Positions 40,757-58,777 of a stretch of 64,000 nucleotides of DNA are shown piece by piece. The stretch lies in contig CAYWIH010000006.1 of assembly GCA_964458305.1 (NCBI GenBank), forward strand, positions 5,884 to 69,883. The letters run 5' to 3'. Below the pieces are notes generated by a model that was not told the DNA's origin, ran no database searches, and saw only the letters and a list, made by a program, of their open reading frames with translations. Numbering within the stretch: position 1 is the first letter of the stretch; each line of letters starts with the position of its first letter. The stretch is from an uncultured bacterium (GTDB taxonomy: Bacteria; Cyanobacteriota; Cyanobacteriia; Cyanobacteriales; JASJDA01). A program made the translations under genes and the position numbers.

Positions 40757-43700
40757 ATGAATCACAATTATATATTACCAGTCAAAAGCAATAACGATCG
40801 CACTAAATTGGAGTCTTTCGACAAGCAAAAAGAAAAAATAGATCGATTTAAAAGAAAATTATTCAAACAAGAACGCGATCGCCTTTGGAAAATCCTCAAA
40901 AAAATCCGCCTGAAGGAAGATTTAGAGAGTTTTTTATTAACAATAACAGCAGCAATTAAACAAGAATTACAACTCGATCGCGTCTGTATTTATCGTTTCG
41001 ATCTAGAAAGCGGAGGGGAAAAAGGTCAAATAATCGCAGAATCTGCAAGCAAAGACTTTACTCCTACTTTAAATGAAATTCTTCCGAGTCTTGTTTTTGG
41101 GGCAAAAGATGCAGCAGAATATTATTTTCAAGGATTGGTAACTTTAGATGTAAAAAATTTATCGGCTTATCAAAAGCAAGTATTAACTCGATTTCAAGTC
41201 AGATCTTCGGTAGCATTACCTATTTTATTAAACTCAATTTATTCGGCAAAAGAGGAGCGATCGGAGGAAGTTTGGGGTTTATTAGTAGCGCAGCAATGTC
41301 AGAGGGAGCGTCAATGGCAAGAAAATGAAATTAATCTGCTCGATCGCATTAGTAGGGAAATAACTATTAGATTGCAACAAGATCGATCGGAAATTAAATT
41401 ATTAGAGGGAAAAGATATCTTGAGTTCGATCGAGCGATCGATGACGATAAAGATGCAAGCAATAGCTACTAAAGTGCGTCAATCTCTCGAAGCAGATCGA
41501 GCAATTGTTTGGGCTTTAAATCCTGACTGGAGCGGCAAAATATTAGCAGAGTCCGTAGGGGCTAATTGTCAGAAAGTAGGGCATAAATTCGCAGTCAATT
41601 ATTTTTTAAAAGAAGAAGAAAATCGGCCTTATTATTTAGTTAACAATATTGAAAGTAAAAAAATAGATCGTCACTCCCGCGAAATTTTAGAAAAATTCGC
41701 AGCAAAAGCTTATCTTAAAGTACCGATCGAGCAAAACGGCCAACTATTAGGATTTTTAGCAGTTTATTACAACTCAACTTCTCGAAACTGGTCGCGATCG
41801 CAAATAAATTTAACAATCGATTTTGCTAGTAAATTGAGCTTTCCACTCCAGCAAACTGCTACGATCCGTAAAAGGGAGTTTGAAAAACAGCAAAGCCAAC
41901 AAATTCAAAAAAGAGAAAAAGAACTAAAAAAAACTATTTCTCTATTAAGAAAGGCAAAAAATGAAGAACTGATTTTTCAAGTTGCAACTCAATCGAGTAG
42001 AAAAATTTTGGCAGTCGATCGCGCGGTAATTTATCGTTTTAATTCCGATTGGAGGGGAGAATTTGTCGCCCAATCTCATCCTAGCAATATAGCGAGTTTA
42101 GCCAAGACAATTAAAGATATTTACTGGCAAGAAAATCGAGCTAGAAATTATAAATTTGGCGAATGTTTTGCTGTAGAGGATATTGATGATGAAAAGCACC
42201 CATCTAGCAATTTAGAACTTCTCAAACAATTTGAAGCTAGAGCCTATGCGATCGCTCCGATTATGACAGAAGATAACAAACTTTGGGGAGTTTTAGGTGT
42301 TTATCAAAACAGTAAAATTCGCAAGTGGCAACCTTCTGAATTAGAAGCTCTCAAAGAGATTGCTACTCAACTGAGTATCGCCAGACAGAAGATAGAATAT
42401 ATCAGAAGGTTAGAGCAAAAAGCCGAGCGAGAAACAGTATTAAACAAAATAGTTGCAAGAATTCGCGAATCTTTGAACCTCAAAGAAATTTTTGAAACCA
42501 CTACTCGAGAAATACGCAATATACTAAAATGCGATCGAGTGGCAATTTATCGTTTTAATCCCGACTGGAGCGGCGAATTTGTTGCCGAATCTCGCGGCCC
42601 CGAATGGCTATCTTTGCTAGAATTACAGCACGCTCGTCCCGAAATTATTGAAAACGTCAATGAGTGTAGCATCAGAAATTTAGCCGAAAATCGAGGTATA
42701 TTCGGGACAAAAGATACTCGCATCCAAGAAACTAAAGGCAGTATTTTTAATAAAACAGTACCCTATCGCATCAGCAACGATATCTATCAATCCGACTTTT
42801 CTGACTGTTATCTTAAAGCTTTAGAAGCATATCAAGCTAAAGCTTACATCATTTTTGCACTCTATCAAAAAGAACGTTTGTGGGGTTTATTAGCCGTATA
42901 TCAAAACTCCTCCCCTCGTAATTGGCAAGAATCTGAAGTAAAATTATTAAATACGATCGCCTCTCAATTGGGAGTAGCAGTATTGCAAGCAGAATATGCC
43001 AGAAAAATTGAAATTCAATCCCTACAAGAAGCAGCAACTGCGCAAATTGTCGCTAGAATTCGTCAATCTTTAAACCTCAATGAGATTTTTGAAAGAACTA
43101 CTTGGGAAATACGCAATTTATTAAAATGCGATCGAACCGCAATTTATCGTTTTAATCCCAACTGGAGCGGGGAATTTGTCGCCGAATCTCGCTCTCCTGA
43201 ATGGGTATCTTTGCTAGAATTACAAAAAGCTAATTCGGCAATTTCTGAGAATATCGATAGTTGCAGTTTGAAAAATTTGGCTGGCGATCGAACTGTAGTC
43301 GGGACAAAAGATACTTATATCGAAGAAACCAAAGGTAGTATTTTTAGTAGAAGCATTCCCTACCGCATCAGCAACGATATTTATAATTCAGGTTTTTCTG
43401 ATTGTTATATTAGAACTTTAGAAGCATATCAAGCTAAAGCTTACGTTATCATCGCTCTCTATCACGGCGAAAAATTATGGGGTTTGTTAGCTGCATATCA
43501 AAACTCCTCTACTCGCAATTGGCAAGAATCTGAGGTTAAATTATTAAATGCGATCGCTTCTCAATTAGGAGTAGCAGTATTGCAAGCAGAATACGCCGAT
43601 CGACTCGAGGAAAAATCAAAAAATCTCGACCTAGCTTTGGAGCGGGAAAAAACAGCTAAAGAGAATTTAGAAAAGCAAGCTATTGCCATGTTAAAATCGA

Positions 43701-47736: not shown

Positions 47737-48204
47737 GTGAATAGATTTAACAAAATTATTTCTAGTTTATACTCGTCTAAAAATATTATTCTTGGCTTAA
47801 TTTTAATTGTTATTTTATTAGGTGGTTGTGCTAACAAAGAAAAAGATCGAGAATTTGAAATGTACTTTTATAGATCTTTAAATTACATCAATGTAGCTCG
47901 GGGCTTAAACGATATCGATCTCGAAAGGAAAAAAACATTCTTCGAGTCAGAATATACCATGGAATTAGCCCAAAGAATAGCTAGAGAAGATTGCCATCGT
48001 CTCAAAAAAAGAATTAAAGTAGTCGAAAAAAATGAAACTAAAATAGACTTTTTACGGAAAAGAGGACAAAGAACAGAACAAGAAATTGAAGATATTAAAG
48101 ACATCGATCGCGCTATTTATTTAGCAGGAAAATTAAGTTACTGTCCTAAATTTATCGATCCGAAAATTGAAATTTATAAGACAATTCGTAAGAATGAATT
48201 TTAA
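47737..48204 (+). CDS. Hypothetical lipoprotein
   Basis: 155 aa with a GTG start, a signal peptide and lipobox 'LLGGC'. The mature part is a charged helical region. No family recognised. Confidence 0.45.
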   Translation: MNRFNKIISSLYSSKNIILGLILIVILLGGCANKEKDREFEMYFYRSLNYINVARGLNDIDLERKKTFFESEYTMELAQRIAREDCHRLKKRIKVVEKNETKIDFLRKRGQRTEQEIEDIKDIDRAIYLAGKLSYCPKFIDPKIEIYKTIRKNEF

Positions 48205-48353
48205 TTGATATTTGTTTCGCGAAGAGGTTCATTTTAAGATCGTCTCGAAAAGTGGCATAAAAAATAAAGTAAGCTTTAAAATTGGACTCGAGATGCAAAA
48301 AGATGATTTAAATTACTAAAATAGGTAAAAATTGGACGTGAGGCATTTTCCGT

Positions 48354-48719
48354 ATGATGGATTTTGTGGCACAAGCTGCTAAGATTGTAATTACTATATT
48401 AGGGACAAAAGCCTTAGAAAGAATTGGCACAAAATTACCGGATATATTAACAGAGAAAATTCGCAAATTTACCGCATCCCTAGAGCAAATCTCTCCCGAT
48501 ACTGCAAAAGCTCTTAAACTAGCCCCAGAACAACCGTTAAACAGCGATCGAGTAGAAAGAGAAATAATAGCAGCAGCACGAAACAATCCTGAATTTAAAG
48601 AAATATTGCTCGATTTAGAAAAAGCAATACATAATTACTATCTAGCTAGCAAAGGACAGCAAAACATAATTAATAACGATCGAGTTAACCGATTCAGCAA
48701 AAAATATTTTTCAAATTAA
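48354..48719 (+). CDS. Short helical ORF, probably the detached N-terminal module of the downstream STAND NTPase
   Basis: 121 aa. It ends 37 nt before the NACHT reading frame opens in a different frame. It resembles the short helical leaders found on cyanobacterial NACHT proteins. Confidence 0.4.
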   Translation: MMDFVAQAAKIVITILGTKALERIGTKLPDILTEKIRKFTASLEQISPDTAKALKLAPEQPLNSDRVEREIIAAARNNPEFKEILLDLEKAIHNYYLASKGQQNIINNDRVNRFSKKYFSN

Positions 48720-48756
48720 TAATATCGAAAATTTTAATAATACTGTAGGTGACTGA

Positions 48757-51700
48757 AAGCATTCGCATAAGAATAATACACCGTTAGAAATTCACTGGCA
48801 AGATGTTTGCGGAAAAATATTAGAAAAACAGCGAGAATATGGGGAATTTAGACGCAAAGCAACCGATCGAGGTTTTGAATTAAAGATTAATGTAGCTCTA
48901 AGTTTAGTCGATCGCATCCAACAACAGCGAAAAGCAAAAAAAGAAAAAGAAAAAGAAGAAAAAGATCGAACTTTTCCAGGATATTATCAATTCGATCGAT
49001 TTTTAAAAGAAGTTATCGACACTGAAAAAAGCAAGTATATTGCTATTGTTGGTAAACCTGGAGCGGGAAAAACAAAGCTGTTAGAAGATATTGCCTTTTG
49101 GATACAGGAAAATAATAAAGGCTATCCGATATGCGTATCGTTGGGAAAGTTAAAAGATTTAGAAGATTTAGAAAAGAAACCCCTCGAAGAATATTTATTA
49201 AAAGAATGGTTAGAAAAAGCACTGTCATATATCAAAACAAAAATAGACGAGCGACATACTGATGCTTTAAAACAACTATTTAGAGAGGGTAAAGGATGGC
49301 TGCTATTAGATGGTTTGGATGAGATAACAGCTTCTTCCTCCATTAAAGCTTTGGCTCGAATTAAGCAAGAATTGGACGGATTTTTTAATGGGAGAGTAAT
49401 TATTACTTCCAGACTTAATATTGGAGATGGGAGTAGTATCAATCTTGCTGGTTTTGAAACTTATCTCACTCTAGATTTTCAACAAAAACAAGTAGAAGAA
49501 TTTATTCAGCAGTGGTTTGCTGAAGCTGACAAAAAAGATAAGACAAATTTAGCTCTAAAAAAGGTAAAGAGATTACAGAGCAAGTTAAAAGAGACAAAAA
49601 ATATCAAGATTAAAGATTTAGTTAGAAACCCTCTGTCATTATCGCTTTTGTGTCAAATTTTCTATGTAGATGATTCTGTAGAGTTACCCCAAACTAAAGC
49701 ACAACTTTATCGGCTATTTACCCAAAATTTTTATCGCTGGAAACAAGAGCAACATCCAGATTTAATCGAGAAAGATAAACCAGTCAAAAAATTACATAAA
49801 GCTCTTGCTAAATTATCTCTAGCAGCAATTGAAAACAAACTTAGATTTAGAATTAAACGAGAATTTGCTCGCGAAACTATGGGCAATAAAATGTTTAAAT
49901 TAGCTTGGGATTTAGGTTGGTTAAATTTAGTAGAGAAAGAGTCACAATTACAAGGTACTGTTTACTGTTTCTTTCATCCGACTTTTCAAGAATATTTTGC
50001 CGCACAAGCAGTTGACGATTGGCATTTTTTCCTAGATGAAAGATCGAAAGATATAACAAAAAGCATTTATGGTATTTTCGATTCGCAGTGGAAAGAAGTT
50101 ATTTTATTTTGGTTGGGAAGAGAAGATATTAAATCAGATATTAAAGAAAAATTTATTAGTAATTTAAAAGAGTTTCGAGATTTTTGTCAAGGATTTTATG
50201 GTTATCAAGCTTATTTTTTAGCCGCAGCAGGAATTAATGAATTTCAAGATTGCTCTTTAGAGTTAACCGAGGAAATAGTCACAAAAGTAATTGAATTGAG
50301 CTTTGGATATTTCAACGAAGAAATAAAACAATGGATTCAATTTATCGAACCAATTACCAAACCTGCCAAAATAGCATTACTAGAAACCAATCAAAAAATA
50401 GCAATACAATTTTTAATTGAACGGCTAAATAACTGCAAGAAAAGTAGTGTCATTCAAGAAATTATTAATATCTTAGGTAAAATTGCTGTTGGAGATGACA
50501 AGGCGATCGCAACTCTTAAAAACCTCTTAGAAGATAAAGAACTCAATCAAAATGAAAGAATTAGTCTCTGTGCTGCTCATAATTTAGGCATAATCGATCC
50601 AAACAATCAAAAAGCAATTAAAACACAAATAGAACTATTAAAAACTGCCAATCACCATTGGACTCAGATCGACGCAGCAGGAAGCTTACAAGTAATAGGT
50701 AACAACGATCGATTAGCTATCAATGAATTAACAAATATATTAAAAACTAACGATAATACTAATATTTTGGTTTTTGGTACTGATACTCTAGAAATCATTG
50801 CTGTTGGCAATAAAAAATGTATTCAAGAATTAATTGAGTTTATAAATTCTGATAATAATACCTGGAATTGCGAATTAGCAGTTTCTTGCTTGGGAAAAAT
50901 TGCTCCGGGAGATAGCAATGCTGCTGAATCTTTGAAAAATCTACTACAACATACACAAAATCATTTTATCTTTTCTAGAGCTGTAGATAGTTTAAAAGAT
51001 ATTTTGCCAGACAATTTAGAAATAGTTGAATTGCTAAATAGAATTATTCAAGAAACTGAAAATGAAGAAATTAAACAGTCAGCATTTTATTATCTAGAAG
51101 TAATTAATGCCAGTAATCTAATCGCTCTCGAAGCACAGCTAGAAATACTTAAAAAGAATAATAATCAGATCGCTCGTAATCGTGTCGCCAACAAGATAAT
51201 AAGCAAGTATGTAGGAAATAAAAAAGCGATCGAGAGTTTAGATGAAATCATTCAAAACCTAGATTTAGCTCCCTTAAGGATTATAGAATTTGCTGAAATT
51301 TTAGCCGCGATCGATCCTGACAATGACACAGCTATTGATTCAGTTATAGAAATTATTGAAATTGCTAGAAATGACGATATTTTTAAAGAATGGGAAATTG
51401 TTTTAGCCAGAAAAGAGGAAAATGAAAATTCAGATGATTCTGAACTTTTCGCACTGCAAGAAAGAGAAATATTAGAAGTACAAGAACAAAGCAATCCCAA
51501 TAGTAGTTATAGGGATTGTTGCAAAGAAGCGATCGAGTCTTTGGGAAAAATCGGTCAAAACAATCCTAAAGTTATTAGCTTTATTATCGAACTTCTAAAT
51601 ATTAAACAACCTATTAGCTCGGCAGTTTTCGAGACTTTAGCAAAAATTGCTTCTAATAACGAAATTGCTATTGATTCCTTAATAGAAATAATATTAGATA

Positions 51701-52281
51701 ACGATTCTAATAATTCTACTCGTTATGAAGCTATATCTTGTTTGGGAAAAATTGCTATAGGTAATGAAAAGGCGATCGAAGCATTAATAACACTCGTACA
51801 TACTAAAGAAAGAGATATTTTTATAGAAGCTTGTAATAGCCTCGAAAATATTCTTCAAGGTGATTTCGTACCTCAAGCAATTTTCCTTTTAAAAGAGTTT
51901 ATAACCGATGAAATACACCAACAAAATTATTTACTCTACAAATCTTGCTATAAATTAATCGATCGTTGCTCGCAAATTGTTCCTTATACAGTCTTTTATC
52001 GAGCTTGTTACACTCCTAATCTAGAATATTATCAAAAACTTTTAAAAATCAAACAAAAAGTTAACGACAAAATAGGTGAGTTAATTTGTTCGATCGCTAT
52101 CTCTATTTTGTATCTGCGGAAATTTAAAATTAAGGAATTTTTGGCAACAAATAGGTTAGCAGCTCAAATATTAATCACAATTGACACATCGTCTCTCGAT
52201 CTTCTTAACTTACCTCAATCGCTAAAATTGCCAATTAAATTTATAAATATACTCAAAAAGCGATTTTTATCTCGATACTGA
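48757..52281 (+). CDS. NACHT-HEAT repeat STAND NTPase, apparently 5'-disrupted (possible pseudogene or frameshift)
   Basis: The frame is open from 48757. Walker A 'IAIVGKPGAGKTKLL' at 49039-49083, Walker B 'GWLLLDGLDE', and about 600 aa of HEAT/PBS-lyase-like repeats ('LGKIA.G...AI..L..LL'). The first ATG/GTG/TTG in this frame is the TTG at 49141, downstream of the P-loop. Confidence 0.75.
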   Translation, partial: KHSHKNNTPLEIHWQDVCGKILEKQREYGEFRRKATDRGFELKINVALSLVDRIQQQRKAKKEKEKEEKDRTFPGYYQFDRFLKEVIDTEKSKYIAIVGKPGAGKTKLLEDIAFWIQENNKGYPICVSLGKLKDLEDLEKKPLEEYLLKEWLEKALSYIKTKIDERHTDALKQLFREGKGWLLLDGLDEITASSSIKALARIKQELDGFFNGRVIITSRLNIGDGSSINLAGFETYLTLDFQQKQVEEFIQQWFAEADKKDKTNLALKKVKRLQSKLKETKNIKIKDLVRNPLSLSLLCQIFYVDDSVELPQTKAQLYRLFTQNFYRWKQEQHPDLIEKDKPVKKLHKALAKLSLAAIENKLRFRIKREFARETMGNKMFKLAWDLGWLNLVEKESQLQGTVYCFFHPTFQEYFAAQAVDDWHFFLDERSKDITKSIYGIFDSQWKEVILFWLGREDIKSDIKEKFISNLKEFRDFCQGFYGYQAYFLAAAGINEFQDCSLELTEEIVTKVIELSFGYFNEEIKQWIQFIEPITKPAKIALLETNQKIAIQFLIERLNNCKKSSVIQEIINILGKIAVGDDKAIATLKNLLEDKELNQNERISLCAAHNLGIIDPNNQKAIKTQIELLKTANHHWTQIDAAGSLQVIGNNDRLAINELTNILKTNDNTNILVFGTDTLEIIAVGNKKCIQELIEFINSDNNTWNCELAVSCLGKIAPGDSNAAESLKNLLQHTQNHFIFSRAVDSLKDILPDNLEIVELLNRIIQETENEEIKQSAFYYLEVINASNLIALEAQLEILKKNNNQIARNRVANKIISKYVGNKKAIESLDEIIQNLDLAPLRIIEFAEILAAIDPDNDTAIDSVIEIIEIARNDDIFKEWEIVLARKEENENSDDSELFALQEREILEVQEQSNPNSSYRDCCKEAIESLGKIGQNNPKVISFIIELLNIKQPISSAVFETLAKIASNNEIAIDSLIEIILDNDSNNSTRYEAISCLGKIAIGNEKAIEALITLVHTKERDIFIEACNSLENILQGDFVPQAIFLLKEFITDEIHQQNYLLYKSCYKLIDRCSQIVPYTVFYRACYTPNLEYYQKLLKIKQKVNDKIGELICSIAISILYLRKFKIKEFLATNRLAAQILITIDTSSLDLLNLPQSLKLPIKFINILKKRFLSRY

Positions 52282-52733
52282 AGATCGGATTTTAAAAATT
52301 TATTTCACGAAAAAATCGTTAGTGGTAGTGAAGTTTACCTCCGTATTTTCACTAAACTAGTCTTCTAGCGCGTCTAAAATTCGATCCCTATTTTTGGTAA
52401 CTTTCATCGATCGCAGTTTTTTTGTTTTACTCGATCGAGTTTGCTAGCAAATATTTCCGCAAGTCAAGACAATGTTTCGATGTTGCCATTATTGCGATCG
52501 ACCAGCTTAAGAATCGATCGATTGTTATTAGTCAATTTGGCTGAAAATAATTAGTATAAAATCTCATGCTTATTTTTTTGCAAATCTTAATAATTAATAG
52601 TAAGGGTTAAAAAAAAGTACGCTAAAACTCGTTTAAATAAAGCTAAAAATAAAGACAAATTACTTATTTTCTCGAATCAATCGTATTTTAGCAAATAAAA
52701 TCTTTCTTGAAGAGGAAAACGATCGTGAATCAA

Positions 52734-53384
52734 ATGCAGCTTAAAAAGATAGTTATTGCTGGAACTCCAGGAGCGGGAAAAACTACTTTTATCAATACTA
52801 TAAGTCAAATTAAAACAGTTAATACAGATCGAAGAGCAACCGATAAAACTAGCTTGCTCAAATCACATACAACCGTTGGCATGGACTTCGGGAAAATAAA
52901 ACTTTACGACGATTTAGTCTTGCATCTTTATGGCACTCCCGGACAATCTAGATTTAATTTTATGTGGGAAGTTTTAATTACAAAAGCCGATGCATATATT
53001 TTATTAGTCGCAGCCAACCGTCCCGAAGAATTTCCAGAAGTTCGTCAAATTATGACCTTTATGAATCGTTTAATTGCAGTACCGATGATTGTTGGTTTGA
53101 CTCATGTTGACGCTGAAAATGCTCTATCCGCTTCCCAAGTTGCTGCTGGAATAGGACTTAAGAATCATCCAAATAAACCGCCATTTGTGAGTCTCAATGC
53201 TAATAACCCTAAATCTATTAAACAAACTTTAATTGCTTTATTAAAGCATCTCAAAGCACAACAAGTGCAAAATAAATCTTTGCAATTAGCAACTCAAACA
53301 AATCGGAAAATGATTAGTTACGATCGCCAGCAAAGACGTTTTAGAAAAACTGATTTTTTAAAAAGTGGTTTTTCCCTGCATTAA
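52734..53384 (+). CDS. Small Ras-like GTPase of the MglA/CvnD (COG2229) type
   Basis: G1 'GTPGAGKTT', G2 Thr in 'TVGMDFG', G3 'GTPGQSRF', and 'THVD' at the G4 position. The start is uncertain: TTG 52707, GTG 52725 (with GAGGA 8 nt upstream) or ATG 52734. Confidence 0.7.
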   Translation: MQLKKIVIAGTPGAGKTTFINTISQIKTVNTDRRATDKTSLLKSHTTVGMDFGKIKLYDDLVLHLYGTPGQSRFNFMWEVLITKADAYILLVAANRPEEFPEVRQIMTFMNRLIAVPMIVGLTHVDAENALSASQVAAGIGLKNHPNKPPFVSLNANNPKSIKQTLIALLKHLKAQQVQNKSLQLATQTNRKMISYDRQQRRFRKTDFLKSGFSLH

Positions 53385-53415
53385 TTATTGCCAATTTATT
53401 TTCAACTCATAATTT

Positions 53416-53446
53416 AACCTCCTCAGATCTAACTGAAGAGGTTTTT
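53416..53446 (+). terminator. Putative intrinsic terminator after the GTPase gene, between convergent genes
   Basis: Stem 'aacctcctcag'/'ctgaagaggtt' with one mismatch and a 6-nt loop, followed by 'ttt'. Confidence 0.45.
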
Positions 53447-53449
53447 AAT

Positions 53450-53902
53450 TTATTCTTTGAGGTAACGACATCCAGAGGTACAAGTTTCTTGAATTTCCAC
53501 CGCATAAAGTCCGGGTAAACCAGCTTTTTCTAACTTGTTAAAAATCCAGCGGGCTACTTGTTCGCTAGTAGGATTTTCTAAACCCATAGTTTCGTTGAGG
53601 TAGTAGTGATCTAAATATCGATCTAAAAGAGGTTGCAGGTATTCTTTAATATCCCCATAATCGATAACCATACCCTTTTTCGGGCCATTTTCGATTAAAG
53701 CATTTCCTTTAACATATACTTTCCCCAGCCAACTATGTCCGTGCAAGCGACTGCATTTACCATTATGATGGGGTAATTTATGAGCCGCTTCAAAACGAAA
53801 TTCTTTATATATTAACCATTCTTCCACTGTTTCGATCGCTTGGCTGACATTTTTTGATGTTAATTTTATTGTTACTATCTTAACAAACTCATTATTGCTC
53901 AA
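53450..53902 (-). CDS. queD: 6-carboxytetrahydropterin / 6-pyruvoyl-tetrahydropterin synthase (QueD/PTPS family)
   Basis: 150 aa with a TTG start. 'FRFEAAHKL' and the active-site motif 'CSRLHGHSW'. Confidence 0.8.
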   Translation of the reverse strand: MSNNEFVKIVTIKLTSKNVSQAIETVEEWLIYKEFRFEAAHKLPHHNGKCSRLHGHSWLGKVYVKGNALIENGPKKGMVIDYGDIKEYLQPLLDRYLDHYYLNETMGLENPTSEQVARWIFNKLEKAGLPGLYAVEIQETCTSGCRYLKE

Positions 53903-54082
53903 TTCAAGGTTGAATTAGCAGTTCTAGAGGCAAACAACATTATAATTTAAGAAAAGTTTTATTCTTTTAAGGTAAAACCCTCGAGAGAATAAAATTAACA
54001 AAATATTGAGCTTTTAAAAATCCTAAATATTTTAATTTTTATTTCTCAATAATTCGAGCAAATATTTACTCCGATCGATCGA

Positions 54083-54865
54083 TTAATCGAGCATGGGTAA
54101 AAGTTCTTCTACTAAACGTTTAATTGCCAGAAAAACGATCCCTTGCTTGGCTTCTTTCGTTGCCAAAATCAGTAAAGCCACTTCTTCGCCACAACCAACC
54201 AAAATACTGTAACCTTTTTCCCCTTCAACTAAAACCCGTTCGATCGCCCCTCGAGCCAGATCGAACGCGATGCGATCGCCCAAAGATAGCATTGCTGCTG
54301 ACATAGCCGCAGTTCTTTCTTCGTCAAGGGGATCGGGTAAAACTGCAGTTATCGGCAACCCATCGGGGCTAACCAAAATTGCTCCTTCAATCTGTGGAGT
54401 ATTGACAATAAAGTCTTGTAATTTATTTTGTAAACTGGATACTTCTATCATGTTAGGCTTTTCAAGCAATTCATCGTTAAAAGTTTTACTTATTGTAATA
54501 TCAGAAGATCGATAATGTTTGAGAATAGCAATTAAATCTTCTTTAGAAATTGGTTTGGCTAAATAATAATCTGCCCCCTGTTTTATGCCCCAATACTTAT
54601 CCATTTCACTATTTTTATTCGAACAAAGGATAATTGGGATATGGCTTGTTTTGATACTATCTTTAAGAATACGACAAATTTCAAATCCGCTGCGATTTGG
54701 TAAAACAATATCTAAAATAATTAAACTTGGTTTATTGGTGTCAATTTTGTCTAGAGCATCTTCACCGCTTTCAGAAATACAAACTGAAAAGCCTTCTTGC
54801 TCCAAACAAATCTTAATAATTTCTCTATCCGTGATACTATCTTCAACTATGAGGGCAGTTTCCAT
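54083..54865 (-). CDS. Response regulator: receiver domain fused to a Roadblock/LC7 (MglB-like) domain
   Basis: 260 aa. REC motifs are 'LIVEDS', phospho-acceptor 'LIILDIVLP' and 'YYLAKP'. The C-terminal 'IEGAILVSPDGLPI...DEERTAAMSAAMLSLG' is Roadblock/LC7-like. Confidence 0.8.
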   Translation of the reverse strand: METALIVEDSITDREIIKICLEQEGFSVCISESGEDALDKIDTNKPSLIILDIVLPNRSGFEICRILKDSIKTSHIPIILCSNKNSEMDKYWGIKQGADYYLAKPISKEDLIAILKHYRSSDITISKTFNDELLEKPNMIEVSSLQNKLQDFIVNTPQIEGAILVSPDGLPITAVLPDPLDEERTAAMSAAMLSLGDRIAFDLARGAIERVLVEGEKGYSILVGCGEEVALLILATKEAKQGIVFLAIKRLVEELLPMLD

Positions 54866-55056
54866 ATTGTCTTGCTACCTCGATCTCGATCTTCGCGATC
54901 GGCTAACTTGATTAAAACTATTAAAGTAAATTGTTATTATACCGTTTCAGTTTAATATTGCTACACTCGATCGCTTCTGAGTTCGGCAAGTGTAGCCTCT
55001 TGTTTCGCGCCTCTGCTATTAGGATAAGGCAAGGTAGATAAATAAAGGTAAAAGAA

Positions 55057-55084
55057 GGGATAAAAAACCAGGATTTATTATCCC
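55057..55084 (-). terminator. Putative intrinsic terminator after the ACP-AONS gene
   Basis: 7-bp stem 'gggataa'/'ttatccc' with a 14-nt loop. The minus strand continues 'ttcttttacctttattt'. Confidence 0.4.
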
Positions 55085-55162
55085 TATCCCTGGGAAGATA
55101 ATTCTTATTTTTACTCTCAAGTAATTAAGCTTAAAGATCGTCGTCAGTAATTTTTTCCCTAT

Positions 55163-56737
55163 CTATATAAGAGTTGAATTTTTACCTTTGAGTAGATCTA
55201 ATTCTTCACTTAAGGCATCGACGGTAAAACGAATTTGCTCTTCTGTATGAGTACAAGTTATAAAAAAACGTAACCTCGCCTCATTTTGAGGTACGGAAGG
55301 GTAAAACATAAAGGGAACGTTGATGCCGCGAGCGAAAAGATGGCGAGAAAGGACAACAGACTTTAAAGAATCGCCGACCACGATCGGAATTACTGGAGAA
55401 TCTTTAGAGATACCAGTATTCAAGCCTCGCTCCTTAGCTAATTGTAAAAATAATTTAGCTCTTTGATGCAAGATTTTGACTCTTTGGGGTTCTTTTTTAA
55501 GTAACTCGATCGCGGCTAGAGTAGCTGCGGCATTAGGTGGGGCCATACCGACGCTAAAAACGAAACCGGGGGCAGTATATTTAAGATACTCGATTAAAGC
55601 CGCAGATCCAGCGATATACCCCCCACAACTAGCAAAAGACTTGCTAAGAGTTCCCATCCATAAATCTACATCATTGGGGTCTACAGCGAAATATTCGCCG
55701 ATACCGCGACCGTTTTCCCCTAAGACTCCGATCGAATGGGCTTCATCTACCATCAAAAAAGTTTTATGCCGCTTTTTAATTTCGATAAACTGCGGTAAAG
55801 GTGCGATATCGCCGTCGGTGCTGTAAATACCTTCAATAACGATTAAAACTCGCTTGTAATAGCTGCGGCGATCGCTCAATATTTCATCTAATTTTTCCCA
55901 GTCGTTGTGAGGAAAAGCTAGGACTGTCGCTCCAGATAAAAAACAGCCTTGTAAAATACTATTGTGAGAGAGGCTGTCGTGTACGATCAAATCGTTTTTA
56001 CCGAATAAATGACCGATGGTACTGACGTTAGTAGCGTGACCGCCGACGTACACTATACTAGCTTCAGTGCCGATAAAAGCGGCAATTTCTCGCTCTAATT
56101 CTTGGTGTAAAGGTTTTTCCCCGCAAACCAAACGACTCGCACAAGCAGAAGTTCCGTAACGGGCGATCGCTTGATTGGCTGCCGCAGATACGAACGGATC
56201 GCCGCACATATCTAAATAATTGTAAGTCGCGTAATTGATAAACTGGCGATCGCCAATAGTTGTAGTATTATTAACAATTCCTTCTTGAGGGATAAAAAAG
56301 GGATTGCCCAGACCCAAAGATTCGATTTCTTGTTGCTGTAATTTTAATTGTTTGTATTCGGGAGAAAGTTCGAAATTGTAATATTCTGGTAAAATTTCTT
56401 CTGCTTGTCGTTCTGAAGCCGGATAAGATGAGTCTGGAAGGATTTCTGCGGCTAAATATTGCGCTAAGACCTCGATATTTTGATAGTCCCACAATAAAGT
56501 GGGTGCGAGCCTCCTGCCTAAAAAACTTTCTAATTCTCCAGATAAGTTTACTGCTTCGATCGAGTTGAGACTGTAATCGATAAAATCTCGTTTTGGATCG
56601 ATCTCGTCCGTTTCTAAATCTAGTTTTTTAGCTAATTTTTCGATCAACCAGTTTTTGATTTTCGTTTCAGAAACCTTAGCTATATCATAAGTTTGAGGAC
56701 TTTGTTTGCCATTGGGTATATCTTTAGATATTGTCAT
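55163..56737 (-). CDS. Carrier protein (ACP/PCP) fused to a PLP-dependent alpha-oxoamine synthase (BioF/Spt/CqsA family)
   Basis: 524 aa. The N-terminal PP-binding domain has Ser in 'DYSLNSIEAVNL'. The AONS core has 'HDSLSHNS', 'VDEAHSIG' and the PLP Lys in 'GTLSKSFASCGGY'. Confidence 0.87.
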   Translation of the reverse strand: MTISKDIPNGKQSPQTYDIAKVSETKIKNWLIEKLAKKLDLETDEIDPKRDFIDYSLNSIEAVNLSGELESFLGRRLAPTLLWDYQNIEVLAQYLAAEILPDSSYPASERQAEEILPEYYNFELSPEYKQLKLQQQEIESLGLGNPFFIPQEGIVNNTTTIGDRQFINYATYNYLDMCGDPFVSAAANQAIARYGTSACASRLVCGEKPLHQELEREIAAFIGTEASIVYVGGHATNVSTIGHLFGKNDLIVHDSLSHNSILQGCFLSGATVLAFPHNDWEKLDEILSDRRSYYKRVLIVIEGIYSTDGDIAPLPQFIEIKKRHKTFLMVDEAHSIGVLGENGRGIGEYFAVDPNDVDLWMGTLSKSFASCGGYIAGSAALIEYLKYTAPGFVFSVGMAPPNAAATLAAIELLKKEPQRVKILHQRAKLFLQLAKERGLNTGISKDSPVIPIVVGDSLKSVVLSRHLFARGINVPFMFYPSVPQNEARLRFFITCTHTEEQIRFTVDALSEELDLLKGKNSTLI

Positions 56738-57013
56738 AGTTTGCTCCTTACACCACGCTTATCGAGCAATTTGATTGCCAAGCTGTTTAATCTTTGTCTT
56801 CAAATGGTAAAACTAATCCAGAGGTTAACAAAAAAATTCTCTTAATGACAGCAAAACTTACAGATCGTCAGATCGACAGCATTGGAGATCTCGGTAGAAA
56901 CCTACCATAGTAAGTCCGCACAAAATTGAGATAATTTATTAATCTAAATTTGTTTATCAAAAAAAAATAATTAAAAAAATTAATTTTTGCTGTTAGTCTT
57001 CTGGCGAACCCTC

Positions 57014-58777
57014 CTACTCGATCGCTTCTAAAGTTCCGTTGAGAAAACCGGCCCGAGTTGCGTATCGCTGAATTTTACCGCTAGGAGTTTTAGGAATGCT
57101 TCCGGGTTTGAGTAAGATGGCAGCGTCTAATTGCAATTCGTGATATGTAAATACTACTTTACGAATAGATTTAATCAGTTCTGCGGGGGAAAAATTGCCG
57201 TTATTAGCGTTAATATTGGTTTTTTGACTGCGATAGTAAGAACGTTCTATTTCCGAGGCAATCGCTAATTTTTGTTGTCCGTCTTTGATAAAAGAAAATA
57301 CAGCAGAACAATGGGGTCTAATTTGGGGGTGATTTTCTGCGACGGTTTTTTCGATATCTTGAGGGTAATAGTTGCGACCGTTTAAAATTATTATGTCTTT
57401 GAGACGACCCGTACAATATAATTCACCCTCGGCCATAAATCCTAAATCTCCGGTACGTAAAAAAGGCCCTTCTTGAGTGTCTGCTAAATATGCTGCAAAA
57501 TTTTTTGCGGTTGCTTCGGGTTGTTGCCAATAACCTTGGGCTATGCTCGGCCCTTTTACCCAGATTTCCCCTATTTCTCCTTCAGCTTTTTCGATCGATG
57601 TTTCGGGATCGACGATAACTATTTTTTGATCCTGAATGCTGCGGCCGCAACTAACTAACTGACGTACCTTATCCTCATCTTCAAAGCTAGCTGGTTCGGC
57701 TCGATCGAACTCTAATTCTGCTGCTTTAACCGTCCGGGTTTTGACTCGATCGCTGCAAGCAATACCCGCAATTAATAAAGTAGCTTCAGCCATACCGTAA
57801 CAAGGATAAAATGCTTCGGGGCGAAAGCCAGTCGGGGCAAAATATTCGCTAAAAGCAGCGATTACTTGATAGTCGATCGGTTCTGCACCGTTAAAAGCTA
57901 CTTTCCAACTACTGAGATCGAGATCTTTGAGCTGTTCTGGTTTGATTTTACGCACGCAAAGATCGTAAGCAAAATTGGGGCCGCCGCTAGTAGTAGCTCG
58001 ATGACGCGAAATTGCTTGCAACCAGCGCAAAGGATTTTGTAAAAACATCAAAGGAGACATCAAAATTACCGGAAAGCCGCCGTAAAGGGGTTGTAAAACA
58101 CCTCCGATCGAACCCATATCGTGATAAGGTGGCAGCCAGATCGCTCCTTTACTATTATTGTCGTGTTCGAAACAGCGATAAATCGATTCTAAATTATGCA
58201 TTAAATTGCGGTGGGCGATCGCCACTCCTTTCGGTTCTGCTGTAGAGCCGGAAGTATATTGTAAAAAAGCCAAACTATCGCCGTCGAGTTTCGGTTTTTG
58301 CCAGTTGGTAGCTTGTTGTTTCGAGCAGCGATCGCTCAGGATTAATTTCAGGTTTTTGAGTTCGGGGACGTATTGATAGCAGCGTTCGAGATTGGCTTTA
58401 ATTGAATTGGTTGTTAAAGCAATTTTTACCCCTGCATTTGCTATAATTCTTTGAATGCGTTCGCTCGAACGGTTCGGTCGCGGTGGATACGCTGGAACTG
58501 CAATAATTCCAGCAAAAAGACAACCAAAAAATGCAGCAATGTATTCTAGACCTGGGGGATAAAGAAGTAAAACCCGATCGCCAGGTCGGGCAATAGTTTG
58601 TAATTTAGCCGCGATCGCCAAAGCAAGTAGTTCTAATTCTTTGTAAGTCAGACAAACAGCGTCATTCTCTCCGTCGACTAAAAATGTATAGCCGATTTTT
58701 TCTGGTTGATGTTCGGCCCGATAAGATAATAAATCTACTAAAGTGTCGAGGTGTAAATTTTTTTCTGAAAAACTCAT
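57014..58777 (-). CDS. Fatty acyl-AMP ligase (FAAL)
   Basis: 587 aa. FAAL-type N-terminus 'LVDLLSYRAEHQPEKIGYTFL', AMP-binding 'LQYTSGSTAEPKGV', 'GDLGF', and C-terminal 'PKTPSGKIQR'. Confidence 0.87.
   Translation of the reverse strand: MSFSEKNLHLDTLVDLLSYRAEHQPEKIGYTFLVDGENDAVCLTYKELELLALAIAAKLQTIARPGDRVLLLYPPGLEYIAAFFGCLFAGIIAVPAYPPRPNRSSERIQRIIANAGVKIALTTNSIKANLERCYQYVPELKNLKLILSDRCSKQQATNWQKPKLDGDSLAFLQYTSGSTAEPKGVAIAHRNLMHNLESIYRCFEHDNNSKGAIWLPPYHDMGSIGGVLQPLYGGFPVILMSPLMFLQNPLRWLQAISRHRATTSGGPNFAYDLCVRKIKPEQLKDLDLSSWKVAFNGAEPIDYQVIAAFSEYFAPTGFRPEAFYPCYGMAEATLLIAGIACSDRVKTRTVKAAELEFDRAEPASFEDEDKVRQLVSCGRSIQDQKIVIVDPETSIEKAEGEIGEIWVKGPSIAQGYWQQPEATAKNFAAYLADTQEGPFLRTGDLGFMAEGELYCTGRLKDIIILNGRNYYPQDIEKTVAENHPQIRPHCSAVFSFIKDGQQKLAIASEIERSYYRSQKTNINANNGNFSPAELIKSIRKVVFTYHELQLDAAILLKPGSIPKTPSGKIQRYATRAGFLNGTLEAIE

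What the first reader, a model, noticed from the sequence alone, without database searches (positions are those of the whole stretch)
48354..52281. NACHT-HEAT STAND NTPase with its P-loop upstream of any start codon, and its N-terminal module in another frame
Seen in sequence: one frame is open from 48757 to 52281. It encodes a pre-NACHT segment ('IHWQDVCGKILEKQ...RRKATDRGFEL'), Walker A 'GKPGAGKT' (49051-49074), Walker B 'LLLDGLDE', and a long C-terminal HEAT/PBS-lyase-like repeat array. I read every codon between the TGA at 48754-48756 and the TTG at 49141. None is ATG, GTG or TTG, so the first usable start lies 3' of the P-loop. The 121-aa helical ORF at 48354-48719 sits in a different frame. 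All three frames carry stops between 48717 and 48756, next to A/T homopolymer runs. Established knowledge: bacterial NACHT/STAND NTPases (bNACHT, Avs-like) act as anti-phage or conflict sensors, with an N-terminal effector or adaptor and a C-terminal repeat sensor. Inference: there are three possibilities. It may be a recently decayed defence gene, an assembly indel, or a naturally split or recoded STAND system. In the split case a small helical adaptor would be made separately from the NTPase-sensor body.
Basis: partly seen in the sequence, partly recalled or inferred. Interest (0 to 1): 0.7.

Follow-up and report, generated by a model that had tools for sequence, protein, structure and literature searches.

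The report
Leaky-stop-joined death effector and immune sensor
A small membrane-attack-type (Bell-like) gene and a start-less NACHT immune-sensor gene are joined by one in-frame UGA stop, a layout conserved with an RNA hairpin in dozens of cyanobacteria and best explained by programmed stop-codon readthrough, although the copy in this window is broken by a one-base insertion.

Summary
The frame is open from 48757 to 52281, encodes NACHT and HEAT domains, and has no ATG, GTG or TTG before TTG 49141, which lies 3' of the P-loop. The 121-aa ORF is in another frame.

The interpretation needs revision. ORF1 is not a broken N-terminal domain. It belongs to a family of standalone ~145-aa Bell-domain proteins, the known NLR-associated death effectors. 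TGA 48754 is that gene's native stop.

In 49 of 83 related cyanobacterial loci the Bell gene ends in TGA, and 43 of 54 TGA stops are followed by C. The same frame then runs on for 130 to 1,200 codons into a STAND NTPase with no start codon of its own. A 5-bp hairpin with compensatory changes sits 8 nt after the stop. Codons upstream of the first ATG show coding periodicity, and one locus has TGG in place of TGA. I infer programmed UGA readthrough that makes free effector plus a rare effector–NLR fusion. I found no description of this in the literature I searched.

This window's copy is degenerate. A 1-nt insertion at 48675–48684 unlinks the effector from its C-terminal motif and from the UGA. 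The hairpin is not recognisable. Two related assemblies show a P-loop deletion and near-total gene loss.

The parts
48354..48677 (+). Bell-like small-protein gene, intact part (108 codons, MMDFVAQAAKIVITILGTKALERIG...). It has an N-terminal hydrophobic helix with an acidic residue at position 3.
   Evidence: An exhaustive HMMER search found 51 relatives with E<=1e-3, almost all standalone proteins of 125-168 aa that match over their residues 7-94. Family members carry C-terminal motifs matching the published Bell-side BASS5 motif. An AF2 model of family member P0128 is a helical bundle with pLDDT 87.
48675..48684 (+). Frameshift site. The window reads AACGATCGAG where relative L004 reads AATAACAAG, a net +1 nt that creates a CGATCG palindrome.
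   Evidence: Alignment of window, L004 and L001. blastn shows a single gap across 3,845 nt.
48678..48722 (+). Out-of-frame tail of ORF1 (DRVNRFSKKYFSN) ending in a double stop, TAA TAA, at 48717-48722.
   Evidence: Translations. L004 reads ...NIINNNKLTDSAKNIFQINNIENFNNTVGD* instead.
48685..48753 (+). Displaced native C-terminus of the small protein (LTDSAKNIFQINNIENFNNTVGD). This is a BASS-like N/Q-rich signalling motif, now lying in the NACHT frame.
   Evidence: It is contiguous with the Bell-like domain in L004. It resembles family C-termini such as ...AGNIENFNQNNTF* and KLADEIKNLFQGGIFNNPTFN*.
48754..48756 (+). TGA, the native stop of the small gene, in frame with the NACHT ORF. It is the candidate readthrough codon, here in a UGA-A context.
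   Evidence: 57 of 83 related loci end the small ORF in TGA. In 49 of them the same frame stays open for at least 100 codons, and none of the 26 TAA/TAG loci does so. The background TGA frequency is 18%, p = 4e-22. Only 3 of 32 long ORFs in this window end in TGA.
48757..48795 (+). Post-stop linker (KHSHKNNTPLEIH). It is a shortened, AT-rich counterpart of the conserved hairpin element and contains ATT 48790, the start that NCBI annotation used in L004.
   Evidence: Covariance model R1 gives no hit here. Folding finds only a 4-bp AUUC/GAAU stem, z = -0.16. L004's gene call starts at the equivalent ATT.
48796..48810 (+). WQDVC, the conserved pre-NACHT W..[VI]C motif.
   Evidence: The motif lies 95-177 residues inside full-length fused homologues. 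In UGA-joined loci it lies 14-20 codons after the TGA.
49036..49524 (+). NACHT NTPase domain, with Walker A at 49051-49074 and Walker B at 49300-49323.
   Evidence: Pfam PF05729, 42.1 bits, E = 1e-10.
49141..49143 (+). TTG, the first canonical start codon in the frame, 3' of the P-loop. The source annotation starts its 1046-aa protein here.
   Evidence: P0001, 100% identical, 1046 aa.
50374..51912 (+). HEAT / PBS-lyase-like repeat array, the presumed sensor.
   Evidence: Pfam HEAT_2, 95.7 bits in 4 stretches, plus HEAT_PBS. It aligns with the repeats of P0116.
51928..52011 (+). NCC-H-like segment (NACHT C-terminal Cys/His motif), followed by a ~90-aa tail to the stop at 52281 with no detectable NCAB1 domain.
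   Evidence: Pfam PF22730 scores 22.6 bits, below the cut-off of 27. tblastn homology to homologues ends near 52011.

Best explanation
**What it is.** The locus is a two-product immune module of a kind that is widespread in filamentous and colonial cyanobacteria. A ~133-145-aa Bell-like protein gene ends in a UGA. The protein has an N-terminal membrane-targeting helix, a helical bundle and a short C-terminal N/Q-rich signalling motif. The UGA lies in frame with, and directly upstream of, a STAND NTPase ORF that has no start codon of its own. Here that ORF is NACHT-HEAT.

**How it most likely works (inferred).**
1. Most ribosomes terminate at the UGA and release free effector.
2. A minority read through. 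The family stop context, UGA-C, is from my own knowledge a weak terminator in E. coli. A hairpin sits 8 nt downstream.
3. Readthrough makes an effector-motif-NLR fusion, equivalent to the known 'all-in-one' Bell-NLR architecture.
4. When the HEAT sensor binds a trigger, NACHT oligomerisation would cluster the N-terminal motifs.
5. The clustered motifs would recruit or template the free effector, and the cell would die.

**State of this copy.** A 1-nt insertion at 48675-48684 makes the small ORF end at TAA TAA, 35 nt before the UGA and in another frame. The effector has lost its signalling motif, and ribosomes can no longer enter the NACHT frame. The canonical hairpin is also absent. This copy is therefore most likely inactive.

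**Shown:** the architecture, its conservation, the hairpin covariation, the coding signature upstream of any start codon, and the lesions.
**Inferred:** readthrough itself, the ratio of the two products, amyloid-type signalling, and the death or antiphage role.
For: **ORF1 is a separate gene.**
- ORF1 belongs to a family of standalone small proteins: 51 hits, nearly all 125-168 aa.
- Their C-terminal motifs match the published Bell-side BASS5 motif.
- Their N-termini begin MEP(L/I)T, matching the Bell 'MEPIS' signature.

**The TGA is native.**
- In the 98.8%-identical assembly L004 the small ORF is continuous and ends at the same TGA. A 1163-aa NACHT ORF follows in frame.

**The layout is conserved (83 loci).**
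- 57 small ORFs end in TGA, and 49 of these stay open in frame for at least 100 codons. None of the 26 TAA/TAG loci does.
- TGA is enriched against an 18% background (p = 4e-22).
- TGA is followed by C in 43 of 54 loci, against 3 of 31 in the background.

**The downstream ORFs lack starts.**
- In 23 of 39 P-loop loci the first canonical start lies after the conserved FVGR or W..VC motif.
- In L042 and in the window/L004 it lies at or after Walker A.
- The codon after the TGA is CTG in 19 loci, CTA in 14, GTG in 6, CCA in 4 and another codon in the remaining 6. There is no consistent reinitiation codon.

**An RNA element follows the stop.**
- A hairpin starts 8 nt after the UGA and is paired in 98.6% of cells.
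- Three of its pairs show compensatory changes; one pair is UA in 28 sequences, CG in 14 and UG in 2.
- No shuffle out of 500 reached the observed value. Slid controls pair in only 13-45% of cells.
- Covariance model R1 hits once per locus, exactly at the junction.

**The start-less stretch is translated.**
- Codons 14-33 after the stop, upstream of the first ATG, have position entropies of 0.24/0.20/0.61.
- This matches undisputed coding sequence at 0.28/0.13/0.63.
- Codons 1-13, the hairpin, show no periodicity.

**Natural mimic.** L041 has TGG (Trp) in place of TGA.

**NACHT-HEAT relatives.** All three tested homologues with short annotated N-termini are UGA-joined: P0093 in Microcoleus vaginatus PCC 9802, P0102 in Anabaena sp. 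4-3 and P0105 in Hassallia. So are L010, L028 and L058.

**Decay in this lineage.**
- L003 lacks 48553-49223 and has three nonsense codons.
- L005 lacks almost the whole gene.
- dN/dS is 0.42-0.48, against 0.08-0.19 for flanking genes.
Against: - No direct evidence of readthrough exists: no proteomics, ribosome profiling or reporter assay.
- The window/L004 junction has UGA-A rather than UGA-C and no R1 element. Only a 4-bp AU stem forms there, with z = -0.16. Membership of this particular locus therefore rests on three things: homology of the small protein, the in-frame TGA, and the missing start codon.
- The hairpin could serve another purpose, such as mRNA processing, translational coupling or recombination.
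- Six loci have GTG directly after the TGA, which would allow ordinary reinitiation there.
- Bell identity is supported by motifs and context only. No profile or fold match is available: Pfam gave none and the best Foldseek PDB match had E = 1.1.
- The hairpin covariation may partly reflect two clades rather than many independent events.
Confidence: 0.62

Rival explanations
1. Two ordinary, separate genes. The small protein terminates at UGA, and the NACHT protein starts independently. The start would be a non-canonical codon (ATT 48790 here, as NCBI annotated in L004) or termination-reinitiation next to the stop. The hairpin would serve coupling, mRNA processing or stability, and no fusion protein would ever be made.
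For: - NCBI annotation of L004 starts the 1163-aa protein at ATT.
- 25 of 49 loci have CTG or GTG directly after the TGA.
- Dyrka et al. report that Bell/NLR gene pairs are usually 10 bp or less apart, or overlapping.
- The coding periodicity after the hairpin shows translation but does not show where it began.
Against: - 24 of 49 loci have CTA, CCA, AAG, ACG or another non-start codon after the TGA.
- No conserved start or Shine-Dalgarno-like spacing is evident.
- A strict in-frame relation, a strong preference for TGA-C (43 of 54 against 3 of 31) and a hairpin at the classic 8-nt recoding distance are not needed for reinitiation.
- L041 replaces TGA with a sense codon, TGG.
- In the window no ATG, GTG or TTG occurs for 128 codons.
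Confidence: 0.2
2. Plain pseudogene of a once-fused single gene. The TGA at 48754 would be a nonsense mutation in the linker between an N-terminal domain and the NACHT domain, with the frameshift as a second hit.
For: - Full-length homologues carry an N-terminal domain (EAD4 or HTH) of 95-177 aa before the W..VC motif, the position ORF1 occupies here.
- Relatives L003 and L005 are clearly decayed.
- dN/dS is raised.
Against: - The same in-frame TGA recurs in 49 divergent loci from many genera.
- It has a preferred +4 base and a conserved, covarying hairpin.
- Homologues of ORF1 are overwhelmingly standalone proteins of ~145 aa that end at exactly this point.
Confidence: 0.05
3. Assembly or sequencing error. 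The real genome would have no extra base at 48675-48684, so the small ORF would be intact as in L004.
For: The region is AT-rich with homopolymers nearby. The Logan contigs may derive from the same sample as the deposited assembly.
Against: - Two separate runs (SRR6462991 and SRR6462990), assembled with a different assembler, give the identical 121-aa ORF.
- The indel is not in a homopolymer and is accompanied by three substitutions.
Confidence: 0.04
4. The UGA encodes selenocysteine, and the hairpin is a bacterial SECIS element.
For: There is an in-frame UGA with a hairpin immediately downstream, whose loop is G-rich.
Against: - A survey did not detect the Sec-decoding trait in cyanobacteria (PMC1794560).
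- The UGA sits in a linker, not in a redox site.
- The one sense-codon variant is TGG (Trp), not Cys.
- Several paralogous copies occur per genome.
Confidence: 0.02

Closest known systems
Bell-domain / BASS amyloid-signalling gene pairs next to NLRs (Dyrka et al. 2020, bioRxiv 10.1101/2020.01.06.895854; Bab/Agp, bioRxiv 10.1101/2024.11.07.622273)
   Same: - A small (~120-150 aa) helical protein with a hydrophobic N-terminal helix and an acidic residue at position 2 or 3.
- A short C-terminal N/Q/G-rich motif.
- Collinear with, and immediately upstream of, a NACHT or NB-ARC NLR.
- The same taxa: Nostoc, Calothrix, Microcystis and Fischerella.
- Family members carry motifs matching the published BASS5.
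   Different: - In the described pairs the NLR is a separate gene with its own start and its own N-terminal copy of the motif.
- Here the NLR ORF has no start and no second motif copy. It is joined to the Bell gene by an in-frame UGA followed by a conserved hairpin.
- The C-terminal motifs of this class are absent from the published table of paired motifs.
- Neither paper mentions stop codons or readthrough.
'All-in-one' NLRs with an N-terminal Bell/HeLo-like domain (reported for bNACHT02/11/23 and Avast2 in 10.1101/2024.11.07.622273; fungal HeLo-NLRs)
   Same: The predicted readthrough product has exactly this domain order: Bell-like domain, then NACHT or NB-ARC, then repeats.
   Different: In those proteins the fusion is hard-wired. 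Here a stop codon would make it a minor product alongside free effector.
Cyanobacterial NACHT-HEAT-NCC-H-(NCAB1) conflict NTPases with N-terminal EAD4 or HTH domains (Kaur et al. 2020 and 2021, PMC7159879 and PMC8195603; Pfam PF05729, PF13646, PF22730, PF22724, PF19959)
   Same: The body of the protein is 32-38% identical over about 90% of its length. It shares the W..VC pre-NACHT motif, the NACHT domain, the HEAT array and the NCC-H segment.
   Different: - The N-terminal module is not EAD4 or HTH (phmmer and hhalign negative) and is separated by a stop codon.
- No NCAB1 domain is detectable at the C-terminus.
Programmed stop-codon readthrough signals (phage Qbeta coat/A1 at UGA; MuLV gag-pol with a structure 8 nt after the stop; alphavirus UGA-C). 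Cited from my own knowledge.
   Same: - A leaky UGA-C context.
- An RNA structure about 8 nt downstream.
- A long in-frame extension without its own start.
- Two products from one message.
   Different: These are cellular, multi-copy bacterial immune genes rather than viral genes. The element is a simple 5-bp hairpin; a pseudoknot is possible but unproven. It has no Rfam family.

Membership tests
NACHT STAND NTPase (Pfam PF05729) | Profile match above the curated cut-off | tested here: met
   42.1 bits against a cut-off of 26.7, residues 94-256 of the open frame
NACHT STAND NTPase (Pfam PF05729) | Walker A and Walker B motifs | tested here: met
   GKPGAGKT at 49051-49074 and LLLDGLDE at 49300-49323
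NACHT STAND NTPase (Pfam PF05729) | A translatable gene: a start codon upstream of the P-loop | tested here: not met
   No ATG, GTG or TTG between TGA 48754 and TTG 49141. The same holds in related loci.
Cyanobacterial NACHT-HEAT-NCC-H conflict NTPases | C-terminal HEAT array plus NCC-H | tested here: inconclusive
   HEAT_2 is met at 95.7 bits. NCC-H scores 22.6 bits, below the cut-off of 27, but aligns with homologues up to about 52011.
Bell domain protein (Dyrka et al. 2020) | A ~120-140 aa protein with an N-terminal hydrophobic helix and an acidic residue at position 2 or 3, all-helical | tested here: met
   The window protein starts MMDFVAQAAKIVITILG. The family starts MEP(L/I)T and is ~145 aa. 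The AF2 model is all-helical, pLDDT 87.
Bell domain protein (Dyrka et al. 2020) | Homology to recognised Bell proteins | tested here: inconclusive
   No Bell profile is available and Pfam gave nothing. Foldseek against the PDB found nothing significant. Indirect support: relatives found carry C-terminal motifs matching BASS5 in the paper's Table S2.
Bell/BASS-NLR amyloid-signalling pair | The same short motif at the Bell C-terminus and at the NLR N-terminus | tested here: not met
   No second copy follows the UGA in the window or in the family. The motifs of this class are absent from the published paired-motif table.
Bell/BASS-NLR amyloid-signalling pair | Amyloid or prion-forming ability of the motif | not testable with these tools
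   Needs in vitro fibrillation or an in vivo foci assay.
Programmed stop-codon readthrough site | A leaky stop context, conserved | tested here: inconclusive
   Met for the family: 54 of 80 stops are TGA and 43 of 54 are TGA-C, against 3 of 31 in the background. The window/L004 has TGA-A.
Programmed stop-codon readthrough site | A long in-frame extension that lacks its own start and shows a coding signature | tested here: met
   49 loci have at least 100 in-frame codons. Coding periodicity is present upstream of the first ATG. The window has 1174 open codons with the first start at codon 129.
Programmed stop-codon readthrough site | A conserved stimulatory RNA structure a few nucleotides downstream | tested here: inconclusive
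   Met for the family: a 5-bp hairpin 8 nt after the UGA, 98.6% paired, with compensatory changes. Not met in the window: R1 gives no hit and the local fold has z = -0.16.
Programmed stop-codon readthrough site | Detection of the extended protein | not testable with these tools
   Needs proteomics, ribosome profiling or reporters.
Selenoprotein gene with SECIS | Sec-decoding machinery in the host, and Cys in homologues at the UGA position | tested here: not met
   A survey did not detect the trait in cyanobacteria (PMC1794560). The only sense variant is TGG, Trp. The carrier genomes themselves were not searched.
Named antiphage STAND systems (EruA, PADLOC models) | A profile match at family level | tested here: not met
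   NCBIfam EruA scores 38 bits against a cut-off of 1000. PADLOC gives only weak partial hits, mad8 at 8.6e-6.

The most novel reading that the evidence does not exclude
Cyanobacteria use programmed UGA readthrough, set by a conserved hairpin (possibly a pseudoknot) 8 nt after a UGA-C stop, to make two products from one message. The major product is a free Bell-type pore-forming effector. The minor product is that effector fused to an NLR sensor (NB-ARC-TPR or NACHT-HEAT) or to another partner such as an FGE-sulfatase-domain protein. This fixes the sensor-to-effector ratio and removes the need for a second signalling motif. Because output depends on termination efficiency, the module might also respond to phage-induced changes in translation, such as suppressor tRNAs or interference with release factors.
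Probability: 0.5. Interest if true: 0.9.

Novelty: new variant of a known kind. Interest (0 to 1): 0.8.

Why it matters
**Significance if readthrough is confirmed.**
- From my own knowledge, programmed stop-codon readthrough is well established in viruses and eukaryotes but is rarely documented for bacterial chromosomal genes. This would be a large, conserved, multi-copy case: 192 tblastn-confirmed loci among species-representative genomes, 80 of them examined.
- It comes with its own RNA element, which is absent from Rfam.
- It would link two known NLR layouts, the effector/NLR gene pair and the all-in-one fusion, through a tunable intermediate.

**Practical consequences that hold either way.**
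- Genome annotation currently truncates these NLRs at internal ATG, TTG or ATT codons. Examples are P0001, P0093, P0102 and P0105.
- Surveys that pair Bell C-termini with annotated NLR N-termini will therefore miss this class.

**Testability.** The hypothesis can be tested directly in culturable strains that carry intact copies.

Tried and rejected
**Searches that gave nothing useful**
- Pfam, NCBIfam and PADLOC on ORF1 gave no meaningful hit.
- phmmer and hhalign of ORF1 against the EAD4 and HTH N-termini of 88 homologues found no similarity. ORF1 is therefore not a diverged EAD4 or HTH domain.
- The word-indexed protein search with ORF1 found only four near-identical fragments.
- A genome-contig scan with the NACHT N-terminus found nothing.
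- A metagenome scan with ORF1 only re-found L003.
- Look-ups of P0001 and P0021 were not on record.
- tblastn for a frameshifted NCAB1 domain downstream of 52011 found none.
- Rfam matched nothing at a typical junction or in the window.
- Foldseek of the AF2 model against the PDB found nothing significant. There were weak, non-significant Bcl-2-like and Rx-CC matches.
- The promoter and terminator scan of 48100-49300 found promoter-like sites at chance level and no terminator.
- There is no tRNA in the window.

**Structures tested and left unproven**
- An outer helix (UGACU pairing with AGUUA) and a loop-GGG/downstream-CCC pseudoknot are 87-90% paired but show no covariation.

**Ideas dropped**
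- I thought the 155-aa ORF upstream of both the window and L007 indicated synteny. The two proteins are unrelated.
- dN/dS between the window and L004 rests on only 35 differences, so it is not informative on its own.

Full report
**1. The observation**

- TGA lies at 48754-48756, and one frame is open from 48757 to 52281.
- That frame has no ATG, GTG or TTG before TTG 49141.
- Walker A (GKPGAGKT, 49051-49074) is upstream of that TTG. Walker B (LLLDGLDE) is at 49300-49323.
- Pfam finds NACHT at 42.1 bits against a cut-off of 26.7, and HEAT_2 at 95.7 bits. NCC-H scores 22.6 bits, just below its cut-off.
- The 121-aa ORF at 48354-48719 is in another frame, and all three frames carry stops between 48717 and 48756.
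- The source annotation calls a 1046-aa protein from the TTG (P0001). That protein would lack the P-loop.

**2. Close relatives of the locus**

Four related assemblies were found through ORF1.
- **L001 and L002** are Logan assemblies of runs SRR6462991 and SRR6462990. They are 99.9% or more identical to the window and reproduce the 121-aa ORF. An assembler artefact is therefore unlikely.
- **L004** comes from GCA_050331515.1, labelled Prochloraceae cyanobacterium, and is 98.8% identical.
  - It differs by a single gap. Where the window has AACGATCGAG (48675-48684), L004 has AATAACAAG.
  - In L004 the small ORF is continuous (...NIINNNKLTDSAKNIFQINNIENFNNTVGD) and ends at the same TGA as window 48754.
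  - A 1163-aa NACHT ORF follows in the same frame. NCBI started it at ATT, equivalent to window 48790.
- **L003** (GCA_013332805.1) lacks window-equivalent 48553-49223, which includes the P-loop. It also has three nonsense codons.
- **L005** (JGI 3300013759) has lost almost the whole gene.

Selection on the NACHT body looks relaxed.
- dN/dS is 0.42-0.48 for the body, against 0.08-0.19 for five flanking genes.
- Between the window and L003, dS of the cassette is 0.15, against 0.66-0.98 for the flanks.

The locus is decaying in this lineage. The window copy carries one frame-breaking lesion that L004 lacks.

**3. What ORF1 is**

The NACHT-HEAT body has thousands of cyanobacterial homologues at 32-38% identity.
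- Full-length homologues carry 95-177 residues before a conserved W..[VI]C motif, as an EAD4 or HTH domain.
- Walker A lies about 90 residues after that motif.
- ORF1 occupies that position but is unrelated to EAD4 or HTH.

An exhaustive HMMER search of 1.84 billion representative proteins with the clean 108 residues of ORF1 gave 51 hits.
- Almost all are standalone proteins of 125-168 aa that match over their first ~95 residues.
- They begin MEP(L/I)T followed by a hydrophobic helix.
- They end in short N/Q/G-rich motifs such as ...NIENFNQNNTF...IDQRGSTFNI and ...KLADKIGQVVMPG....

These features fit the Bell domain described by Dyrka et al..
- That paper describes 120-140-aa proteins with a hydrophobic N-terminal helix and an acidic residue at position 2 or 3.
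- It also describes a C-terminal BASS amyloid motif and a position next to NLR genes.
- Some family members carry motifs matching the paper's BASS5 entries.
- The Bab/Agp preprint describes a Bell 'MEPIS' N-terminal signature.
- There is no Pfam model for the family and no significant PDB fold match, so Bell membership rests on motifs and context.

The L004 small protein ends where the family ends. TGA 48754 is therefore the native stop of a separate small gene, not a lesion.

**4. The recurrent architecture**

Contexts of distant family members show the same layout as L004. These are Hormoscilla L010, Logan L007 and Microcoleus vaginatus PCC 9802 L092.
- The small ORF ends in TGA.
- The NACHT-HEAT reading frame continues in the same frame.
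- The W..[VI]C motif is encoded between the TGA and the first ATG.

A scan of species-representative genomes with a small-protein alignment gave 192 confirmed loci, of which 80 were fetched. The tabulation of these 80 plus L004, L007 and L010 is.

| Measure | Result |
|---|---|
| Small ORFs ending in TGA (83 loci) | 57 |
| TGA loci with ≥100 in-frame open codons after the stop | 49 (range 138 to more than 1,200 codons) |
| TAA/TAG loci with ≥100 in-frame open codons | 0 of 26 |
| TGA stops among the 80 scanned loci | 54 (background in the same loci 31 of 171; p = 4e-22) |
| TGA followed by C | 43 of 54 (background 3 of 31) |
| P-loop loci whose first canonical start lies after the FVGR or W..VC motif | 23 of 39 |

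- In the TAA/TAG loci the NLR usually lies in another frame 110-250 codons downstream. That is the ordinary two-gene arrangement.
- By Pfam, the post-stop ORFs are NB-ARC-TPR, NB-ARC, NACHT-HEAT-NCC-H, NACHT, FGE-sulfatase, PsbP-like and TPR proteins.
- In L042 and in the window/L004 the first canonical start lies at or after Walker A.
- The codon after the stop is CTG in 19 loci, CTA in 14, GTG in 6, CCA in 4 and another codon in the remaining 6. There is no general reinitiation codon.
- All three NACHT-HEAT homologues with suspiciously short annotated N-termini proved to be UGA-joined: P0093, P0102 and P0105.

**5. An RNA element at the stop**

The ~45 nt after the TGA are conserved at nucleotide level. 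The third codon after the TGA is TCG in 39 of 49 loci. The Arg, Lys and Leu codons of the element are almost always CGG, AAG and TTA, despite their synonymous alternatives.

RNAalifold and explicit pair counting agree on a hairpin.
- It is a 5-bp stem starting 8 nt after the UGA, with a G-rich loop of about 9 nt.
- 98.6% of cells are paired.
- Three pairs carry compensatory changes. One pair is UA in 28 sequences, CG in 14 and UG in 2. Another is GC in 38, CG in 3, GU in 2 and UG in 1.
- No shuffle out of 500 reaches the observed values, and slid controls pair in only 13-45% of cells.
- L093 and L094, which were not in the alignment, add GCCCG/CGGGU and GUCCC/GGGAC versions.

Other points on the element:
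- A covariance model, R1, hits once per locus, exactly at the junction, at 48-79 bits. It also hits non-training loci.
- The element matches no Rfam family.
- An outer UGACU/AGUUA helix and a loop-GGG/CCC pseudoknot are possible but show no covariation.

**6. Evidence that the start-less stretch is translated**

I compared entropy at the three codon positions in 18 NB-ARC-type loci.

| Codons after the TGA | Entropy at positions 1 / 2 / 3 | Reading |
|---|---|---|
| 1-13 (the hairpin) | 0.38 / 0.36 / 0.41 | no periodicity; an RNA-level constraint |
| 14-33 (before the first ATG) | 0.24 / 0.20 / 0.61 | coding |
| 34-58 (undisputed coding) | 0.28 / 0.13 / 0.63 | coding |

- The W..[VI]C motif is internal to fused homologues and is likewise conserved upstream of any start in the UGA-joined NACHT loci.
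- In L041 the TGA is replaced by TGG, so the ORF is continuous across the junction.

**7. Mechanism**

Programmed UGA readthrough is the most economical reading. From my own knowledge, UGA-C is a weak termination signal in E. coli, and recoding stimulators typically sit 6-9 nt downstream of the recoded codon. The expected products are abundant free Bell effector and a rare Bell-motif-NLR fusion. The fusion has the known 'all-in-one' architecture.

This class lacks a second motif copy at the NLR N-terminus, and its C-terminal motifs are missing from the published paired-motif table. This fits with the fusion supplying the motif.

Alternatives:
- **Non-canonical initiation or reinitiation** cannot be excluded.
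- **Selenocysteine** is unlikely, because a survey did not detect the Sec trait in cyanobacteria (PMC1794560) and the only sense variant is Trp.
- **A shared nonsense mutation** is excluded by the breadth and fine structure of the conservation.

The readthrough itself, the product ratio, amyloid templating and the death or antiphage role are all inferences.

**8. The window copy**

- The 1-nt insertion at 48675-48684 makes the small ORF end at TAA TAA (48717-48722), in a frame different from the UGA and the NACHT ORF.
- This strips the last 23 native codons (LTDSAKNIFQINNIENFNNTVGD, 48685-48753) from the effector. It also blocks any entry into the NACHT frame by readthrough.
- The post-stop linker (48757-48795) is a shortened, AT-rich relative of the element. 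It has UGA-A, R1 gives no hit there, and only a 4-bp AU stem forms.
- Taken with the state of L003 and L005, I conclude that this is a recently inactivated, degenerate member.
- No terminator and no above-chance promoter lies between the two ORFs.

**9. Novelty**

None of these papers mentions stop codons, readthrough or recoding in this context:
- the Bell/BASS papers;
- the two Aravind-group conflict-system papers, PMC7159879 and PMC8195603;
- the 2026 STAND survey, PMC13581612.

Targeted full-text searches found nothing relevant either. The library covers open-access papers and bioRxiv only, so an earlier description elsewhere cannot be ruled out.

I classify this as a new variant of a known kind. 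Bell/NLR modules are known and stop-codon readthrough is known. Their combination, and the hairpin element, appear to be new.

**Scores.** Interest is 0.8. My confidence in the overall explanation is 0.62. I am more confident that the architecture is native and that this copy is broken, and less confident that the mechanism is readthrough.

Noticed in passing
window 49224-52240 against L003; flanking genes at 52707-58777: Between the window and L003, synonymous divergence of the NACHT cassette (dS 0.15; ORF1 N-terminal part 0.20) is 4-6 times lower than that of five flanking genes (dS 0.66-0.98). This suggests recent exchange of the cassette between lineages at a conserved chromosomal site.
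   Followed up: partly
window 50648-50673: 12 of the 35 differences between the window and L004 cluster in 26 nt inside the HEAT array. This could be a gene-conversion tract between repeats.
   Followed up: no
whole window; 48545, 48677 and elsewhere: The palindrome CGATCG occurs 278 times in 64 kb and GCGATCGC 46 times, a HIP1-like over-representation. Both the window's frameshift (AACGATCGAG) and the left end of the L003 deletion (CAGCGATCGAG, 48552) sit on CGATCGAG. This hints at a palindrome-associated mutational process.
   Followed up: no
L015/L016 (Brasilonema, Scytonema), L045/L046 (Tolypothrix, Aulosira), L037 (Dapis): The same Bell-TGA junction is also joined in frame to non-NTPase partners. 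L015, L016, L045 and L046 carry the hairpin; the L037 junction lacks it. The partners are a membrane-anchored FGE-sulfatase-domain protein, a PsbP-like protein and a small transmembrane protein. The leaky-stop module is therefore not restricted to NLRs.
   Followed up: partly
L041 5433-5483; L017; L052: L041 (a Dolichospermum MAG) has TGG where other loci have the junction TGA, but then a TAA 32 codons later. L017 and L052 carry extra in-frame stops soon after the junction. Several copies of this module are therefore decaying in other genomes too.
   Followed up: partly
L009 against L010 and L011 (Hormoscilla-type loci): The small-protein gene is identical in all three contigs. The downstream NACHT-HEAT gene is intact in L010 (1220 aa) but reduced to a 286-aa C-terminal fragment call in L009.
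   Followed up: no
window 42447-43600: A roughly 600-bp segment is repeated in tandem at about 81% identity inside the large ORF upstream of the glycolate-oxidase-like genes. It appeared as secondary blastn hits of L001.
   Followed up: no
window 52707-53384 and 54083-54865: A small Ras/Roc-like GTPase gene lies just downstream of the NACHT gene. Two genes further on, on the opposite strand, is a response-regulator/Roadblock-LC7 gene, which makes an MglA/MglB-like pairing. Both are conserved in L003, and the GTPase also in L005.
   Followed up: no
public annotations of L004, L092, L093, L094 and the window's source record: Annotation pipelines start these NLRs at arbitrary internal codons: ATT in L004, TTG after the P-loop in the window's source, and ATG after the W..VC motif in P0093, P0102 and P0105. 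Database N-termini for this class are therefore systematically truncated.
   Followed up: yes
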